Positions 15,066-37,517 of a stretch of 51,627 nt of DNA are shown piece after piece; the first letter of the stretch is position 1; every line of letters begins with the position of its first letter. Made by a program: the position numbers and the translations under genes. Source of the stretch: Escherichia phage tonijn. The stretch is taken from the sequence record NC_049818.1. One strand, given 5' to 3'. The notes under the pieces were generated by a model. The model saw only the letters and a program-made list of their open reading frames with translations, was not told the DNA's origin and did not search any database.

Positions 15066-15097
15066 CTTCAATACTCCTTAGTTGTTGTTGGCTGTAA

Positions 15098-15140
15098 CTA
15101 TACACGATCCGGCAAGCCGAGTTTAGCAAAAAGTGCTACT
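15098..15140 (-). promoter_or_regulatory. Conserved 20-bp element plus TATAGT -10, oriented to drive the lipoprotein cassette
   Basis: The - strand reads TAGCACTTTTTGCTAAAC, 18 nt, then TATAGT, then AAGGAG RBS. Confidence 0.45.
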
Positions 15141-15508
15141 TGTTATTTTTTGTTTTCCGGTGTTATCGGATTTAAGGCGGCGTAAATTTAGCGCAAATTT
15201 TAGCCAACATAAGAACAATAAATAATCAATAAAATAGGTATATACATATAAAATCAATAGTTTATTTATTTATGTATGTGTATTTGTTTTTTCTTGTTAT
15301 CTGTGTTTCTTGTGGTTTTGGTTGTTTGTGGTGATTTTTCTTTCTGAGTATCTGTATGTGCCATCATTCATGTGTATGTATATAATCCGGCGTATCTGAG
15401 AGAACGAGGGAACAAGAAAAATAACACATATTAATCATTAACTTACGCGTCAAATTTGTTTTATTGCCATCTGAGAACGTTTAGAAAACAGAAAAAACAA
15501 AACAACTA

Positions 15509-15536
15509 TTGACTAAATCAACCAAATGGCTACAAT
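15509..15536 (+). promoter_or_regulatory. Sigma70-type promoter (TTGACT-N16-TACAAT) for the recombination operon
   Basis: TTGACT 15509-15514, TACAAT 15531-15536, RBS GAGGAG 15553-15558, ATG 15567. Confidence 0.6.
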
Positions 15537-15566
15537 GCACACACAAAGCAACGAGGAGCATTAAAG

Positions 15567-22450: not shown

Positions 22451-22461
22451 CTAGTCACCTC

Positions 22462-22510
22462 ATAGCATTTTTTGTTAAAACAGTTTATTGTAATGAGTCT
22501 ATTATATACT
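22462..22510 (+). promoter_or_regulatory. Conserved 20-bp element plus TATATA/TATACT, upstream of the helicase gene
   Basis: ATAGCATTTTTTGTTAAAAC at 22462-22481; -10-like hexamers at 22503-22510; ATG 22538. Confidence 0.45.
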
Positions 22511-22537
22511 CCAAATGGCATTTTTTAAAGGTTTAAG

Positions 22538-24535: not shown

Positions 24536-24954
24536 TGGCTATAACTGATAAAGGCGATTATCTTGAGTTTTACGAAAGAGATCCAACCGACACTAGAAAG
24601 GAAGTTAATCACCAGATAGATAGTTTTCAGTGGTTGACTTATGCTCATCCTTATTTGCTGGCGTGGCATACGGTAAACGAGAATGAGAAGTCTAAAGCAA
24701 CGGCGATGATTGATCAGCAGTCCGGCTTGGTTAAGGGAGTAAGCGATTTCATCATCCTGATTGGCTTAAACGGAAAATACCCCTTTGCGGCGATTGAGAT
24801 CAAACGAGTGAATAAATCAGGCAAGGGGAAAGCATCACCAGTCAGCGATGAACAAAAGGCTTTTTTGCGTCGCGTTCGCAGCTTAGGAGGATTCGCTGCG
24901 GTAGCCTACGGATTCAATCAGTTTAAGTTGGCTATTGAATACATGCTTAAATAG
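24535..24954 (+). CDS. VRR-NUC-type nuclease (putative)
   Basis: 139 aa; GVSDFIILI ... AIEIKR pattern consistent with a PD-(D/E)XK VRR-NUC core. Confidence 0.45.
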   Translation: MAITDKGDYLEFYERDPTDTRKEVNHQIDSFQWLTYAHPYLLAWHTVNENEKSKATAMIDQQSGLVKGVSDFIILIGLNGKYPFAAIEIKRVNKSGKGKASPVSDEQKAFLRRVRSLGGFAAVAYGFNQFKLAIEYMLK

Positions 24955-24995
24955 CACTTTTTGTTAAAACTGGCGCGATGGATTGCGCCATAATT
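24949..24995 (+). promoter_or_regulatory. Conserved 20-bp element, GC dyad and ATAAT; stop codon of the upstream gene embedded
   Basis: AAATAGCACTTTTTGTTAAAAC 24949-24970, dyad ggcgcgatggattgcgcc, then cATAATt. Confidence 0.5.
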
Positions 24996-25764: not shown

Positions 25765-26022
25765 ATGAAAAAAGAGAGAAGCGTTTATTTAAATGAAACT
25801 GGCGAATGGTTGTTATTTCGCGCTATGGTGTGCGATGCACTTGATAAAAATCCTAACGTGAAAAAGATGATTGATTGCGATCCGTGGGAATTTTCAAGCG
25901 CATTAGATATGAGCTTTGAGGAGACAAGAAAACTCCCGCTTGAAAAATGGCACGAACAAATCAGAAATGACATGCAAGAGTTTGTTGATTCGTGGAATTT
26001 TCAGCACGGAATGATCCACTAA
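25765..26022 (+). CDS. Hypothetical protein
   Basis: 85-aa ORF; stop embedded in the 20-bp element. Confidence 0.45.
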   Translation: MKKERSVYLNETGEWLLFRAMVCDALDKNPNVKKMIDCDPWEFSSALDMSFEETRKLPLEKWHEQIRNDMQEFVDSWNFQHGMIH

Positions 26023-26066
26023 TAGCACTTTTTGTTAAAACGCCCGGCCTAGTGTCGGGCATAATT
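26021..26066 (+). promoter_or_regulatory. Conserved 20-bp element plus hairpin plus ATAATT; left arm of an inverted pair with 29240..29283
   Basis: AATAGCACTTTTTGTTAAAACgcccggcctagtgtcgggcATAATT. Confidence 0.5.
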
Positions 26067-29474: not shown

Positions 29475-29796
29475 CGCCCATCTCCCCTATTCTCGCCATA
29501 TCCCTGATCCAGTCGTTGCGCATACCATCCAGGCTATACAATTCGAATCCGAAAGGACGCTTTGACGATCCTTTGGACCAGTATTTACCGCAGACCCCAT
29601 CTATATAGCCAGCCGTCATCATTCTTGCGCAAAATTCCTTAGATGCAAGGCTGGCGAACATTCGCGGCGTAAGTCCGGCGGCACGTGCGAGCCGCTCGCA
29701 TTCTCTATGCTGATAGATAAATTTGGCTATGTGCTGCCTGTTAAACCAGTCGTATGACTCACACCATTTATACAGATCAAGCAAAAACATAATCAT
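29401..29796 (-). CDS. Hypothetical protein
   Basis: 131-aa ORF; ATG overlaps the stop of the upstream gene (ATGA). Confidence 0.5.
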   Translation of the reverse strand: MIMFLLDLYKWCESYDWFNRQHIAKFIYQHRECERLARAAGLTPRMFASLASKEFCARMMTAGYIDGVCGKYWSKGSSKRPFGFELYSLDGMRNDWIRDMARIGEMGDDELFQAKANRQDLEALRRKFNIT

Positions 29797-31373
29797 CCCA
29801 GCAGTATTGGATTTACAAAAATAACACCATTAATCACACAAACATAATTTCTCTCTTCCAGCATTGGCAGCAAGTGCCCTTCTATCCTCTTCATTACGCC
29901 AGCTTGACCAACGAAAGGTTTTACCTTTCTCGCTGATTCGTACAGGGCGCGGATATTCAGAATCCCTTTATTAGCCTTGCCGTGTCTAGTGATCAATTCA
30001 ATCAATTTACCCATTTCAGCATCATCACCAGCATAACCAGAAGCATTGGCGGCGCTAATGTATGTTTTGCTCAATTCCTGAAACATGATCAGCGCCTCTT
30101 GCATTGTTTCCACGTCGATCTCTTTCGACTTCTGCGGGTATCCAGCAGGATTAAACCAGTTGCGGATAACATGCAGGACGGAAGCAAGCCTGATCACCTG
30201 TTTATCCATTTTACCCAGCGCACCGCGTAACATTGTATGAGAATACTTTCCGCCGTCTGCAAGATGCGGTTCCATATCCTGGCGAGCAATGTTGAGCACT
30301 CGCATAGCTGAACGGCTTATTTTCAGCGATACATTTGATTCGCTCATGATGTTATGCACCAATTGATAATATTGGGCCTTCAATTCAGAATCCACCGCCT
30401 CATAGGTAGAATCACCATTTTCATCAATGAATGAGCGACGGCCTAAGAATGATTCCTCACGTACCAACAAAAAGCGCTCACTCACACCGATACCGCGCGA
30501 TCCAGCGTCCATGATTCCGCTTATCGTTTCATCCTGGGCTATAACGCTCATACATCCAAGTGCGCGAAAACTCATGTTATTGTCAGCATTAGCACGGGCA
30601 ATTGATACGTGACCATTATCCCACGCCTTAAGCACTAGCTCGCTGTTAGTCTTCCTTTCGCTATTGGCATAGGTCAAGCCTAACAGACTGTTAATACTTG
30701 TTGCTTCGTCAGATATTACGGCAAAGTTACCTTGCTTGTTGTTGATTTTTGCCAAGCCTTCTGGAGTTGTATCTGAAACAGGGAAAGTTATATCACACAT
30801 CTTTTCCAGCTTCTCCTCCAGATCCTCTTTTTCCTGGTATAGAGATTCCATATCAGCGCCTGATCTTTCGCTTTTCATCTCCTTTGCAAGACCTGCCAAC
30901 TTTGCCTGTATTTTCTTTCTTTCCTTGCGGCGTTGCTCGTTGATCTTCTCAACTTCCGCAATCATCGGAGCAATAGCCATACTATTGATCGCAGATTTAC
31001 CAGTTGACGGCGGCTGGCTTGTAACAACGTAAAGCGCAGTCGGCTGATCGGTTCCGTGATAGTCAACCGTAAAGCGTCCAAGCATAGCGGCAGAAATGCA
31101 GCCGATAAAGTGCATGTAAGCTGATGATTCAGGGAATTGAACGGATCGCGCAATGCTGCGTGATAGCTTGCCGACAACATCAATATCATTACCAAGAGAA
31201 ATAACGGGGTAGCGATCGTGACCGCTATTTACATCCTTCACGTCGCCCCAAAAGCTGGACGACTGGCGATAGCCGTTAGCCTGAATTGATACGCGAACTG
31301 GTGAAAGGTTCTGGCTTTCAGCCATAGCGATTATTTGCTGTGGAGTTAATTTGTTCGTTTCTAATGAAAACAT
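29793..31373 (-). CDS. P-loop NTPase of unknown function (Walker A and B)
   Basis: 526 aa; Walker A QPPSTGKSA and Walker B-like FAVISDEAT; AAGGAG RBS. Confidence 0.55.
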   Translation of the reverse strand: MFSLETNKLTPQQIIAMAESQNLSPVRVSIQANGYRQSSSFWGDVKDVNSGHDRYPVISLGNDIDVVGKLSRSIARSVQFPESSAYMHFIGCISAAMLGRFTVDYHGTDQPTALYVVTSQPPSTGKSAINSMAIAPMIAEVEKINEQRRKERKKIQAKLAGLAKEMKSERSGADMESLYQEKEDLEEKLEKMCDITFPVSDTTPEGLAKINNKQGNFAVISDEATSINSLLGLTYANSERKTNSELVLKAWDNGHVSIARANADNNMSFRALGCMSVIAQDETISGIMDAGSRGIGVSERFLLVREESFLGRRSFIDENGDSTYEAVDSELKAQYYQLVHNIMSESNVSLKISRSAMRVLNIARQDMEPHLADGGKYSHTMLRGALGKMDKQVIRLASVLHVIRNWFNPAGYPQKSKEIDVETMQEALIMFQELSKTYISAANASGYAGDDAEMGKLIELITRHGKANKGILNIRALYESARKVKPFVGQAGVMKRIEGHLLPMLEERNYVCVINGVIFVNPILLG

Positions 31374-36084: not shown

Positions 36085-36130
36085 AATGTACCCGATCAGG
36101 TGGCCTGAGTTTTAACAAAAAGTGCTATTT
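36085..36130 (-). promoter_or_regulatory. Conserved 20-bp element plus TACATT, driving the leftward block
   Basis: The - strand reads AAATAGCACTTTTTGTTAAAAC, 18 nt, then TACATT. Confidence 0.5.
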
Positions 36131-36159
36131 GACGGTTAGCGCCAGGATTGTGATCGAAA

Positions 36160-36247
36160 TAATCAAAAGTAATCATTCGTAATCAAATCACGTCAAAATG
36201 ATGATTGCCTTTGCAAATTTGATGAGAAAAGTAATCACGATTAATCA
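36160..36247 (+). repeat. Five direct repeats of (G/T)TAATCA with 10-bp phasing; candidate operator/iteron array
   Basis: Copies at 36160, 36169, 36179 (about 10 bp apart) and 36231, 36241. Confidence 0.5.
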
Positions 36248-36683
36248 TTGGTTGCAGGGGAGATAGTGAAACCTTCCCCTCTTGCCTCACTTTTTTGCCT
36301 GGCTGTCAGTGGCTGTTGTCTTTTGTTCACCCCTGTTACCGATTTCAGGCGGCGTGTTTCCGCGCGGTTTTCCGGTGTAGCGAAAACGAAAAAAACAAAA
36401 AAAATCCTATATAATACATTGAAAATAAAGATTATTTATTTATATATATCTATAATGTTTTCTTTTTGTTCTCACTGTTACAGTGCTTTTTGTTGGTTAT
36501 GGTGTGGTTGTGTGTGGGCATATATGGATAGTTGCGCGCGCGGCGGATTGCATATGTATATATACTTTTTCCGGCGGATTGCGTTAACAGCGTGAACAGA
36601 AAAATAACAGCCGCGAAATCAATAACTTGCGCATGATTTTGTAGTTTTTCGATATTGGTAACGTTTTGAATACAACAAAAACA

Positions 36684-36711
36684 TTGACACGCACCAAATA
36701 GCTTTTATAAT
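36684..36711 (+). promoter_or_regulatory. Consensus sigma70 promoter TTGACA-N16-TATAAT for the rightward early block
   Basis: TTGACA 36684-36689 and TATAAT 36706-36711; the track ORF start at 36710 lies inside the -10 and is rejected. Confidence 0.7.
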
Positions 36712-36742
36712 GCGCCAACAGTCAACAACTGGAGGAAAGGAA

Positions 36743-37207
36743 ATGGAACAGAAGACCACTAAGGACTATTGCGATTGGCTTCGCGAGCTTGGTCGCCGCC
36801 TGGCTAGTGGCGATATTGAAGAGTATAAAATGTCACTAATTGACCTGGCCGGAATGTTAAGCGGTGACGACTGCTACAAGATCACGCGCAGTTCATCCTA
36901 CAGCCGGACCATTATCAACCGCGTTCCAGAAGTAAGGGCCGCAGGTCGGGTAAGCATCAAGGTAGAGGAAACGGAAGATGATAAATTTTACGTTTTCCGC
37001 ATGGTCCGAGAATCGAAAAGGAAAATCATCACGCCAGAAGAATTGCCAGCCATCAAGGCAAGGGCGATTAAAAAGTTTGCCGATCGCTTACTGGCAGCAA
37101 TCCCGAACATCGTGGACCTGGAAGGGGATAAACTGGCTGGAGCTTGTGAGGGCGTAAGCCGCTACCAGGATATGATCCGCGAAATCATCAAAGAGGAAGA
37201 GCAATGA
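36743..37207 (+). CDS. Hypothetical early protein
   Basis: ATG 36743 after GGAGGAAAGG; 154 aa. Confidence 0.55.
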   Translation: MEQKTTKDYCDWLRELGRRLASGDIEEYKMSLIDLAGMLSGDDCYKITRSSSYSRTIINRVPEVRAAGRVSIKVEETEDDKFYVFRMVRESKRKIITPEELPAIKARAIKKFADRLLAAIPNIVDLEGDKLAGACEGVSRYQDMIREIIKEEEQ

Positions 37208-37476
37208 AAAAGGCATTAATCAGCGTTTTGGCGGCAATGGCATTCCTGACCGGATGCAAAGAAGATGGCGCGCATGTTGGCAATGTGCAGATGGCTAACC
37301 CTGGCGATGACTACAGCGTAAGGGAGCTATTCACCGCCGATGGTTGCACTGTTTACCGATTCTATGACGGTCGCACTGTTTACTTCACCAACTGCAAGGG
37401 AACGACTAGCTGGGAAGTGTCGAAAAGCAACGGCAAAGGCACGAAAACAGAATACATGACCGTTGAGACAAAATAG
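37204..37476 (+). CDS. Lipoprotein
   Basis: Signal peptide plus lipobox (MKKALISVLAAMAFLTGCKE). Confidence 0.55.
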   Translation: MKKALISVLAAMAFLTGCKEDGAHVGNVQMANPGDDYSVRELFTADGCTVYRFYDGRTVYFTNCKGTTSWEVSKSNGKGTKTEYMTVETK

Positions 37477-37517
37477 CACTTTTTGTTAAAACGCCAGGCG
37501 CAAAGCCTGGCATAATA
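37471..37517 (+). promoter_or_regulatory. Conserved 20-bp element, hairpin and ATAAT
   Basis: AAATAGCACTTTTTGTTAAAACgccaggcgcaaagcctggcATAATA; stop TAG of the lipoprotein gene is embedded. Confidence 0.5.

What the first reader, a model, noticed from the sequence alone, without database searches (positions are those of the whole stretch)
15072..15566. Divergent control region A: ORF-free GT/AT-rich block plus promoter, a diverged duplicate of region B
No credible ORF lies between the - strand lipoprotein gene and the + strand exonuclease gene. The region contains TTATTTATTTAT, a T/G-rich run (ttcttgttatctgtgtttcttgtggttttggttgtttgtggtg), TATGTATATAAT, GAACAAGAAAAATAACAC and finally TTGACT-N16-TACAAT. 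Region B (36361-36711) has the same blocks in the same order (TTATTTATTTAT, ttggttatggtgtggttgtgtgtggg, CATATGTATATATA, GAACAGAAAAATAACAG, then TTGACA-N16-TATAAT). The duplicated architecture suggests a shared function such as early promoter enhancers, bent DNA, replication origins or small RNAs.
Basis: seen in the sequence. Interest (0 to 1): 0.6.

Follow-up and report, generated by a model that had tools for sequence, protein, structure and literature searches.

The report
Duplicated origin-like early control module
This T1-like coliphage carries two diverged copies of a ~400-bp non-coding module, conserved in both places across the family, that ends in an early host-type promoter and looks like a replication origin, which nobody has mapped in this family.

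Summary
The window is a T1-like (Drexlerviridae) coliphage genome. Region A (15140-15540) and region B (36310-36715) align in one collinear stretch: 67% identity, E 1e-10, z = 30 against shuffles. They are the only two copies in the genome.

The same module sits at both positions in Tunavirus, Hanrivervirus, Changchunvirus and Henuseptimavirus; in Tlsvirus copy A was seen and copy B is inferred from the published TLS P01 promoter.

Each copy has the same layout:
- pairs of TGTT(A)-core repeats spaced 9-10 bp, on the + strand on the left and reverse-complemented on the right;
- two GC boxes;
- a deeply conserved AT core, which is the least stable DNA of the whole genome here and in T1;
- a T/G-rich block;
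- IHF-consensus sites;
- a canonical sigma-70 promoter, one of only about three such promoters.

I found no conserved ORF, no Rfam match and no conserved RNA fold.

Best reading (confidence 0.4): these are immediate-early control regions that also hold the phage's replication origins, where repeats flanking a melting element load a helicase. The phage encodes a P4-alpha-like primase and a helicase with a winged-helix tail. The main rival (0.35) is a purely transcriptional promoter and operator cluster. No experiment exists for either.

Membership of the P4 iteron family was tested and not met. Interest is moderate.

The parts
15113..15140 (-). Copy of the Drexlerviridae 21-nt repeat (aaATAGCACnnnTTGnTAAAA, read on the - strand), pointing towards the cor/lipoprotein gene. 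It lies outside the duplicated module proper.
   Evidence: family D2 (9 copies in the window, plus 11 of the reverse family D1). The repeat is described in PMC11447400.
15140..15169 (+). Region A, left repeat pair: TTGTTATTTTTTGTTTTCCGGTGTTATCGG (TGTT cores about 10 bp apart).
   Evidence: family D1, direct repeat 15140 / 15284, spacing 144. Conserved in 41 orthologues. TGTTA hits at 15141 and 15161 on the + strand.
15174..15200 (+). Region A, GC box 1 (AAGGCGGCGTAAATTTAGCGCAAATTT).
   Evidence: Direct repeat with box 2, spacing 210 (D3). In phage N5822 all four boxes share one variant type.
15209..15288 (.). Region A, AT-rich core: second least stable 80-bp stretch of the genome. Contains the IHF consensus AATCAATAGTTTA at 15252.
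   Evidence: nearest-neighbour dG -80.9, z = 4.8; IHF scan. It is the most conserved block across all A and B copies.
15276..15372 (+). Region A, T/G-rich block (A10 C10 G22 T55). Its 5' end holds the second repeat pair, 15284-15312.
   Evidence: The composition is conserved across genera although the sequence is not.
15358..15394 (+). Region A, internal promoter-like site GTGCCA-17-TATAAT, followed directly by GC box 2 (TCCGGCGTA).
   Evidence: D3.
15400..15427 (-). Region A, right repeat array: GAGAACGAG GGAACAAGA AAAATAACAC (three AACA cores, 9-10 bp period, the reverse complement of the left repeats).
   Evidence: Inverted repeat 15288-15298 / 15411-15421, 11 of 11 complementary (I11). The homologous arrays are visible in the alignments.
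15433..15506 (.). Region A, IHF-like site (AATCATTAACTTA, 1 mismatch) and the distal A/C-rich array GAGAACGTTTAGAAAACAGAAAAAACAAAACAAC.
   Evidence: Read. Conserved block AATCAATnACTTAC.
15509..15536 (+). Sigma-70 promoter P_A (TTGACT-16-TACAAT), driving exonuclease VIII, an Erf-like annealing protein and SSB.
   Evidence: Equivalent to TLS P51. The downstream genes are annotated in relatives.
36102..36129 (-). Copy of the 21-nt repeat, pointing leftwards into the - strand operon that ends with the DUF3987 helicase gene.
   Evidence: D2 and D6.
36160..36248 (+). B-specific insert: TAATCA five times, phased at exactly 10 bp (36160/70/80 and 36232/42). It is not part of the duplication.
   Evidence: 5 per 200 nt against 0.21 expected. 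The T1 record's coordinate 1 maps into the homologous stretch.
36314..36339 (+). Region B, left repeat pair: TGTTGTCTTTTGTTCACCCCTGTTAC.
   Evidence: D2 (direct repeat with 36456-36481, spacing 142). It includes one perfect TGTTCACC at 36324.
36345..36375 (+). Region B, GC box 1 (CAGGCGGCGTGTTTCCGCGCGGTTTTCCGG).
   Evidence: (D11).
36388..36467 (.). Region B, AT-rich core: least stable 80-bp stretch of the genome. Contains TATAAT at 36410 and the promoter-like site TTGAAA-16-TATATA at 36419-36446.
   Evidence: dG -80.1, z = 4.9., D12: AATACATTGA at 36413 is a paralogue of AAAACATTGA at the -35 of P_B.
36456..36528 (+). Region B, second repeat pair (36456-36481) and T/G-rich block (A8 C7 G21 T37).
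   Evidence: (D2, I1).
36541..36582 (+). Region B, GC box 2: CGGCGGATTGC twice, flanking TATATATAC.
   Evidence: D10.
36583..36610 (-). Region B, right repeat array: GTTAACAGC GTGAACAGA AAAATAACAG.
   Evidence: 25-nt inverted repeat with 36456-36480, 80% complementary (I1). Compare the P4 ori sequence GGTGAACAGT GGTGAACAGAC GGTGAACAGT.
36617..36683 (.). Region B, IHF consensus AATCAATAACTTG (36617) and the distal array GGTAACGTTTTGAATACAACAAAAACA.
   Evidence: I2.
36684..36711 (+). Sigma-70 promoter P_B (TTGACA-16-TATAAT, 12 of 12), driving the rightward early genes. The first gene is DUF7174, likely starting at 36744.
   Evidence: Equivalent to TLS P01.

Best explanation
Regions A and B are the two copies of one ~400-bp non-coding module. 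Drexlerviridae keep it at two fixed places: upstream of the exonuclease / annealing-protein / SSB operon, and upstream of the rightward early genes.

**Proposed mechanism.** Each module is an immediate-early control region that also serves as a replication origin.
1. Host sigma-70 RNA polymerase starts early transcription at the canonical promoter on the right edge.
2. Upstream, a phage-encoded DNA-binding protein occupies short TGTT(A)-core repeats. These are phased at about one helical turn and face each other on either side of the centre.
3. IHF bends the DNA.
4. The AT core, the easiest DNA to melt in the whole genome, opens so that the phage helicase and the P4-alpha-like primase can be loaded.
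5. Neighbouring early transcription helps the opening.

The candidate binding protein is the DUF3987 helicase, through its C-terminal winged helix. An alternative candidate is the Cro-like 158-aa regulator.

**Shown:** the duplication, its conservation across the family, the anatomy, the promoters, the duplex-stability minimum, and the absence of coding or RNA signals.

**Inferred:** protein binding to the repeats, melting of the AT core, and origin function.
For: **The duplication is real and there are exactly two copies.**

**The module is conserved.**
- Region A is conserved in 41 loci whose exonuclease is 57-100% identical to the window's.
- Region B is conserved in four other phages (three assigned to different genera); a T1-specific A/B similarity has z of about 14.
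- Tlsvirus keeps module A although it has no divergent gene there, so the module does not depend on the divergent gene layout.

**Duplex stability.**
- The AT cores are the two least stable sites of the genome at 40, 80 and 120-bp windows. z is 4.1-4.9 in the window and 4.8-6.3 in T1.
- The third early sigma-70 promoter region (22451-22537) is only 87 nt long and has no module. The module is therefore more than a generic early promoter.

**Repeats.**
- Direct repeats lie 142-144 bp apart in window A, window B and T1 A. Inverted arms enclose 104-113 nt.
- The right arrays hold three units with a 9-10 bp period.
- TGTT occurs 29 times in the modules against 8.9 expected (P = 7e-8). TGTTA occurs 8 times against 2.3 expected in the window and 11 against 2.1 in T1. 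TGTAAC occurs 7 times in 500 nt of T1 A against 0.25 expected.
- The repeat and GC-box sequences differ between clades at homologous positions. N5822 has CCCACCGC in all four boxes. This points to a co-evolving phage protein.

**IHF.** Two of the six IHF consensus sites of the genome fall in the two regions, against 0.13 expected.

**Replication proteins.**
- The primase is homologous to the P4 alpha primase domain (E = 3e-16).
- The helicase is DUF3987, with a separable C-terminal domain modelled as a winged helix.

**Precedents.**
- P4 ori and crr are annotated with TGTTCACC repeats.
- SPP1 has oriL and oriR (PMC5737612).

**No competing origin candidate.** Published T1-like genome papers report none (PMC11447400, PMC7718038).
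Against: - There is no experimental datum of any kind: no replication mapping, no transcription start sites, no footprints.
- In the window phage the repeats are short and degenerate, and the region's T/G-rich composition inflates their counts.
- The P4 octamer itself is not enriched: the 7-mer core TGTTCAC with up to 1 mismatch occurs 5 times against 3.0 expected.
- T1 regions A and B use visibly different repeat words (TGTAAC against GATTAAC / GATTACG) that share only a TAAC / TGTTA core.
- The AT core is conserved in sequence, not merely in composition. It contains -10-like and, in B, -35-like hexamers that are paralogous to the main promoter (D12). This fits tandem promoters as well as it fits a melting element.
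- There are no DnaA boxes and no GATC cluster. GC skew only follows gene orientation.
Confidence: 0.4

Rival explanations
1. The module is purely transcriptional. Each region is a cluster of tandem host-type early promoters (the main one, plus one or two upstream in the AT core and before GC box 2). It also carries UP-like A/C-rich tracts, IHF sites and operator arrays. A phage regulator, for example the Cro/YdaS-like 158-aa protein, uses the operators to boost or shut off early transcription. There is no role in replication.
For: - The right ends are canonical sigma-70 promoters in front of early operons.
- Each region is internally a tandem duplication of a unit that ends in a promoter or a promoter-like site. 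AATACATTGA in the AT core matches AAAACATTGA at the -35 of P_B. TTGAAA-16-TATATA lies in B, and GTGCCA-17-TATAAT in A.
- The third least stable site of the genome is the third early promoter region.
- The AT core is conserved in sequence across genera. This suits recognition by invariant host proteins such as RNA polymerase and IHF.
- A Cro-like HTH regulator is encoded behind the third sigma-70 promoter.
Against: - The third early promoter works from an 87-nt spacer with no such module.
- The candidate -35 in the AT core is absent from the A copies, and the upstream TATAAT has no -35.
- Repeats up to 370 bp upstream of the promoter, arranged as facing arrays around a melting-prone centre, are unusual for simple operators.
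- The strand-asymmetric T/G block has no obvious role in a promoter.
Confidence: 0.35
2. The module acts as RNA. A transcript from an upstream promoter runs through the T/G-rich block, and the T/G-rich arm pairs with the downstream A/C-rich arm. The resulting long hairpin serves as a processing, antitermination or stability signal for early mRNA.
For: - Inverted arms enclosing 104-113 nt are present in window A, window B and T1 A, although their sequences differ.
- Minimum-free-energy folds of the + strand pair these arms in all three.
Against: - There is no Rfam match.
- RNAalifold consensus energy is 0 for all sub-blocks, and only -1.9 and -4.1 kcal/mol over 418 columns.
- z-scores run from -0.7 to -3.0.
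- By eye in the alignment, one arm changes in the next clade without a compensating change in the other (not counted).
- No convincing promoter lies upstream of the arms in the A copies.
Confidence: 0.07
3. The module is a site for DNA packaging or recombination, not for replication or transcription.
For: - The T1 and TLS records start inside the region-B equivalent, at the start of the annotated terminal repeat.
- Region A sits next to the recombination genes.
Against: - The record start maps to the B-specific insert (TAATCA / TGATTG repeats), not to the duplicated part.
- A pac phage needs one pac site, and region A lies far from any reported end.
Confidence: 0.05
4. The resemblance is a chance or low-complexity similarity between two AT-rich spacers, or a neutral relic of an old duplication.
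For: Both regions are AT-rich and rich in simple runs.
Against: - z = 30 against dinucleotide shuffles, with a single collinear HSP at E = 1e-10.
- Both copies are retained, with the same block order, in distant genera whose exonuclease proteins are only about 60% identical to the window's.
Confidence: 0.01

Closest known systems
Satellite phage P4 ori and crr (type I iterons TGTTCACC, bound by the alpha primase-helicase)
   Same: - There are two separate cis elements per genome.
- Each carries short repeats of the TGTTCAC / GTGAACAG type at a 9-11 bp period, next to AT-rich DNA.
- Window B contains TTGTTCACC and GCGTGAACAG.
- The phage primase is homologous to the alpha primase domain (E = 3e-16).
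   Different: - The octamer is not enriched in the window.
- T1 uses TGTAAC and GATTAAC instead.
- No alpha-type origin-binding domain was found, and the helicase belongs to a different family (DUF3987).
- The modules lie 21 kb apart and each ends in a promoter.
- Nothing shows that the two copies cooperate.
Origins of phage-inducible chromosomal islands (PICI / SaPI pri-rep-ori)
   Same: [quoted passage not shown] The initiator is a helicase with a separate DNA-recognition part.
   Different: Those origins lie directly next to the rep gene and occur once per element. Their repeats are longer and sharper. Their function has been shown with plasmids, whereas nothing has been tested here.
Bacillus phage SPP1 oriL and oriR
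   Same: There are two discrete origin-type regions in one virulent siphovirus genome. Each has repeated protein-binding boxes next to an AT-rich unwinding element (PMC5737612).
   Different: The SPP1 boxes are bound by a dedicated origin-binding protein (G38P), and oriL lies inside a gene. There is no sequence or protein homology to the module described here.
Transcription-linked phage origins (T4 origins that use R-loops; T7 primary origin, recalled from my own knowledge)
   Same: A promoter sits next to a melting-prone element, there are several origins per genome, and they act in the early phase (PMC3016281 abstract).
   Different: Here the AT core lies upstream of the strong promoter. The RNA that would cross the T/G block is GU-rich, which is unfavourable for stable R-loops.
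Promoters P01 and P51 of phage TLS, and the 21-nt direct repeats of T1-like phages
   Same: P_B and P_A are the orthologues of P01 and P51. The leftward 21-nt repeats at the left edges are the published repeats (PMC11447400).
   Different: That paper lists only the promoter hexamers. It states that no origin-type repeats were found anywhere in the genome. It does not describe the 350-bp duplicated upstream module.

Membership tests
Iteron-plus-unwinding-element replication origin | Cluster of repeated short sites, phased at about one helical turn, for an initiator protein | tested here: inconclusive
   - TGTT occurs 29 times against 8.9 expected. TGTTA occurs 8 against 2.3 in the window and 11 against 2.1 in T1. 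TGTAAC occurs 7 against 0.25 in T1 A.
- The period is 9-10 bp.
- The words are short and degenerate, and they are confounded by the T/G-rich composition.
Iteron-plus-unwinding-element replication origin | Adjacent AT-rich element of low duplex stability | tested here: met
   The two cores are the two least stable sites of the genome at 40, 80 and 120-bp windows, in both the window and T1.
Iteron-plus-unwinding-element replication origin | A cognate initiator is encoded and binds the repeats | not testable with these tools
   Only candidates were found: the DUF3987 helicase with a C-terminal winged helix and a Cro-like regulator. There are no binding data.
Iteron-plus-unwinding-element replication origin | Replication starts there, or the element confers replication | not testable with these tools
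   This needs marker-frequency or plasmid assays. None was found in the literature searched.
P4 ori/crr type I iteron system | Multiple copies of the octamer TGTTCACC | tested here: not met
   There is one perfect copy (36324) and one 7-of-8 copy (36591). The 7-mer core TGTTCAC with up to 1 mismatch occurs 5 times against 3.0 expected.
P4 ori/crr type I iteron system | Alpha-type C-terminal origin-binding domain | tested here: not met
P4 ori/crr type I iteron system | Alpha-like zinc-ribbon / TOPRIM primase | tested here: met
   Pfam Zn_Ribbon_Prim. Alpha residues 20-263 align to the 318-aa primase with E = 3e-16.
Sigma-70 early promoter | -35 and -10 hexamers with a 16-18 bp spacer, placed just upstream of an operon | tested here: met
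   The match is 10 of 12 at 15509-15536 and 12 of 12 at 36684-36711. They are orthologous to TLS P51 and P01.
Sigma-70 early promoter | Mapped transcription start, early timing | not testable with these tools
   No transcriptome of a Drexlerviridae phage was found.
Structured non-coding RNA | Match to a curated family, or a conserved fold with covariation | tested here: not met
   There are no Rfam gathering-score hits in the window. Consensus folding energy is about zero for all sub-blocks on both strands.
Drexlerviridae 21-nt direct repeat | aaATAGCACnnnTTGnTAAAA in the direction of transcription, upstream of a gene | tested here: met
   15113-15140 and 36102-36129 belong to family D2. These copies flank the duplicated module and are not part of it.

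The most novel reading that the evidence does not exclude
The two modules are the long-sought replication origins of T1-like phages and work as a cooperating pair, as P4 ori and crr do. The winged-helix tail of the DUF3987 helicase would bind the facing TGTT(A) arrays in both modules. The AT cores would melt with help from IHF and early transcription. Replication of the 50-kb genome would then start from two sites 21 kb apart.
Probability: 0.15. Interest if true: 0.6.

Novelty: new variant of a known kind. Interest (0 to 1): 0.45.

Why it matters
T1 is one of the seven classic T phages and a notorious laboratory contaminant. Its replication origin has never been mapped, and recent genome papers state that no origin-like repeats could be found. 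The logic of its early transcription is also open: the function of the 21-nt repeats is listed as an unanswered question in the TLS paper.

A family-wide, duplicated ~400-bp module gives two concrete loci to test. It joins two of the three host-type promoters to the two most melting-prone sites of the genome.

If the modules are origins, this would settle how a phage with a P4-like primase and a DUF3987 helicase, but no polymerase, starts replication. It would also provide parts for T1-based vectors or for blocking contaminant phages. If they are only promoter clusters, they still define the immediate-early regulon of the family.

Tried and rejected
- **Rfam, whole window:** no hit at gathering thresholds.
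- **RNAalifold, 14 orthologues, five sub-blocks, both strands:** no consensus structure. Single-sequence folds are only weakly better than shuffles.
- **Small ORFs in region A:** not conserved.
- **P4 iteron family:** the P4 record confirmed my recollection of TGTTCACC, but the octamer is not enriched here.
- **DnaA boxes and Chi:** none in A or B. GATC is depleted, not clustered.
- **GC skew:** it follows gene orientation and says nothing about origins.
- **Third copy of the module:** none found.
- **Exact-pattern scan of viral contigs with the AT-core consensus:** The pattern is too low in complexity, so the result was discarded.
- **Literature searches** for a Drexlerviridae transcriptome or a mapped origin found nothing usable.
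- **Relatives of the gene to the right of B:** only two relatives were found, so B orthologues had to be fetched through DNA hits instead.
- **DNA curvature:** not modelled.

Full report
**What the window is.** The 51.6-kb window is essentially a whole genome of a T1-like coliphage (Drexlerviridae). It is 98% identical to vB_EcoD_Poky, vB_EcoS-95 and JLBYU10 over the 2 kb around the finding.
- Region A lies between the - strand cor/outer-membrane lipoprotein gene and the + strand exonuclease VIII gene. That gene is followed by genes for an Erf-like annealing protein and SSB.
- Region B lies between a - strand operon and the rightward early genes.
- The ORF list puts the first rightward gene at 36710. 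That ATG lies inside the -10 hexamer. GGAGG at 36731 with ATG at 36744 is the likely start, and the Pfam DUF7174 match begins at residue 15.

**Checking the observation.**
- A local alignment of A against B scores 114, against 22.9 +/- 3.0 for dinucleotide-preserving shuffles (z = 30).
- blastn returns one collinear HSP, 15141-15499 against 36314-36683, 66.9% identity, E = 1.2e-10.
- A profile built from eight copies finds only A and B in the window. It also gives weak reverse-strand hits over the AT cores, which shows that the centre is roughly dyad-symmetric.
- The similarity is therefore real, collinear and restricted to two copies.
- The leftmost part of each region is a separate, already published element: the Drexlerviridae 21-nt repeat, here pointing leftwards (PMC11447400).

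**Conservation.** Forty-three viral contigs encode relatives of the exonuclease at 57-100% identity. Their upstream 1 kb aligns with the same order of blocks as region A.
- Region B equivalents were fetched from W011D (Changchunvirus), pSf-1 (Hanrivervirus), N5822 (Henuseptimavirus) and PMBT35. They align with both window copies.
- T1's own A and B resemble each other: score 66 against 23.8 +/- 2.9.
- In Tlsvirus there is no - strand gene to the left of region A, only a + strand tail gene and its terminator. The module is still there. It therefore does not depend on the divergent gene layout.
- The three small ORFs in region A are disrupted in other clades.

**Anatomy.** Each module is itself an internal tandem duplication.
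- Direct repeats lie 144 bp apart in window A, 142 bp in window B and 143 bp in T1 A. A second set is spaced about 210 bp.
- Reading left to right, each module contains:
  1. a pair of TGTT-core repeats about 10 bp apart, preceded by a T run;
  2. a GC box;
  3. an A/C-rich stretch;
  4. an AT core (consensus CTATATAATACATTGAAAATAAAGnnTATTTATTTATATATATCTAT), the best-conserved block in all copies;
  5. a second TGTT pair;
  6. a T/G-rich block (A: A10 C10 G22 T55; B: A8 C7 G21 T37), whose composition is conserved but whose sequence is not;
  7. a TATATA element and a second GC box;
  8. an array of three AACA-core units with a 9-10 bp period, the reverse complement of the left repeats;
  9. 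an IHF-type site;
  10. a second A/C-rich array;
  11. the sigma-70 promoter.
- The arms form inverted repeats enclosing 104-113 nt in window A, window B and T1 A.
- Repeat words and GC boxes differ between clades at homologous positions. T1 A has GTGTAACAG, T1 B has CGATTAACA three times, and the window has TGTTAYC / TGTTCAC. N5822 has CCCACCGC in all four boxes, where the window has GGCGGCGT / CCGGCG.
- Enrichment is significant but modest in the window: TGTT 29 against 8.9 expected, TGTTA 8 against 2.3. It is clearer in T1: TGTTA 11 against 2.1, and TGTAAC 7 against 0.25 in 500 nt.

**Physical and host-factor signals.**
- With nearest-neighbour energies, the AT cores of B and A are the two least stable stretches of the whole genome at 40, 80 and 120-bp windows (z = 4.1-4.9). 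The same holds for T1 (z = 4.8-6.3).
- The third least stable site is the third divergent spacer, 22451-22537.
- The IHF consensus WATCAANNNNTTR occurs six times in the genome. Two of these lie in A and B, against 0.13 expected.
- There are no DnaA boxes and no Chi sites, and GATC is depleted in these regions.
- GC skew follows gene orientation only.

**Transcription context.** The TLS paper found only three sigma-70 promoters: P01, P51 and P57 (Suppl. Table S1). These correspond to P_B, P_A and the spacer at 22451-22537.
- My own scan agrees that strong intergenic sigma-70 sites are few.
- A and B thus hold two of the three likely immediate-early promoters.
- The third promoter works from an 87-nt spacer with no module. 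So the 350 bp upstream of P_A and P_B is not a general requirement of early promoters.
- Against that, the AT core holds promoter-like hexamers paralogous to the main promoter. AATACATTGA at 36413 matches AAAACATTGA at 36678, and TTGAAA-16-TATATA lies in B. A second promoter-like site precedes GC box 2 in A. This keeps a tandem-promoter reading alive.

**RNA.** There are no Rfam hits.
- Consensus folding of 14 orthologues gives 0 kcal/mol for each sub-block on both strands, and only -1.9 and -4.1 kcal/mol over the whole 418 columns.
- Single-sequence folds pair the inverted arms, but with z of only -0.7 to -3.0.
- A structured RNA is not supported.

**Replication proteins and the P4 lead.** I recalled that P4 has two cis elements, ori and crr, with TGTTCACC iterons. 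The P4 record confirms this.
- The window's 318-aa primase has the zinc ribbon of primase-helicases. It aligns to alpha residues 20-263 with E = 3e-16.
- Window B contains TTGTTCACC and GCGTGAACAG. Its right array resembles the P4 ori triple repeat.
- The octamer is not enriched, however, and no alpha-type origin-binding domain was found. Membership of the P4 system is therefore not met. What remains is a resemblance in how the system might work.
- The 526-aa helicase is DUF3987. Its last ~85 residues match a separate PHROG. They were modelled as helix-strand-helix-helix-strand-strand, with pLDDT 76-91 (per 10-residue block) over that part of the model.

**Weighing the explanations.** The facing arrays of phased, clade-variable repeats around the most melting-prone DNA of the genome match the layout described for PICI origins (PMC6092414). 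They also match SPP1 oriL and oriR (PMC5737612).
- T1-like genome papers report no other origin candidate.
- I therefore favour a combined early-promoter-plus-origin module, at 0.4.
- A purely transcriptional promoter and operator cluster is close behind, at 0.35.
- An RNA role (0.07), a packaging or recombination role (0.05) and chance (0.01) trail.
- No experimental evidence exists for any of these. Marker-frequency sequencing and a plasmid amplification test would decide.

**Novelty and score.** The promoters and the flanking 21-nt repeats are published. The duplicated 350-bp upstream module and its anatomy are not described in any paper I could search.
- It is a new variant of a known kind of element.
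- It is of moderate interest because it makes the unmapped T1 origin directly testable.

Noticed in passing
window 36130-36300: The B-specific insert carries TAATCA five times on the + strand at exact 10-bp spacing (36160/70/80 and 36232/42). This is the densest cluster in the genome: 5 per 200 nt against 0.21 expected. The homologous stretch in T1 has TGATTG repeats and holds coordinate 1 of the T1 record, the start of its 2.8-kb terminal repeat. The TLS record starts there too. It may be the packaging (pac) recognition site.
   Followed up: partly
window 36710-36744: The mechanical ORF start at 36710 lies inside the -10 hexamer of P_B. GGAGG at 36731 with ATG at 36744 is the likely true start of the DUF7174 gene.
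   Followed up: partly
about 20 sites across the window, e.g. 24949-24995, 26020-26066, 37471-37517: The published 21-nt repeat (ATAGCACTTTTTGTTAAAAC) is often followed by a GC-rich hairpin and then CATAAT about 22 nt downstream. That spacing is too long for a normal sigma-70 promoter. It suggests a promoter class that depends on a phage factor.
   Followed up: no
window 22451-22537: The third divergent spacer is only 87 nt long and is the third least stable DNA in the genome. It carries a - strand TTAAAA-16-TATAAT site (the TLS P57 equivalent) ahead of the Cro-like regulator and primase genes, and a + strand 21-nt repeat ahead of the SNF2-type helicase gene.
   Followed up: partly
window 29796-30050 (- strand, helicase aa 440-526): The C-terminal ~85 residues of the DUF3987 helicase match a separate PHROG of unknown function. 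They fold in silico as a winged helix.
   Followed up: yes
records in the phage collection: Eighteen records named 'Campylobacter phage' (hit IDs H57, H58, H60 and others) and one named 'Streptococcus phage' are T1-like coliphage sequences. They are probably contaminants or mislabelled hosts.
   Followed up: no
whole window; modules 15140-15566 and 36310-36743: GATC is frequent in the genome (307 sites, about 1 per 168 bp) but absent from both modules.
   Followed up: partly
L052 and L054 (Tlsvirus region A): Tlsvirus phages have no cor gene to the left of region A. The module follows the tail gene and its terminator directly.
   Followed up: partly
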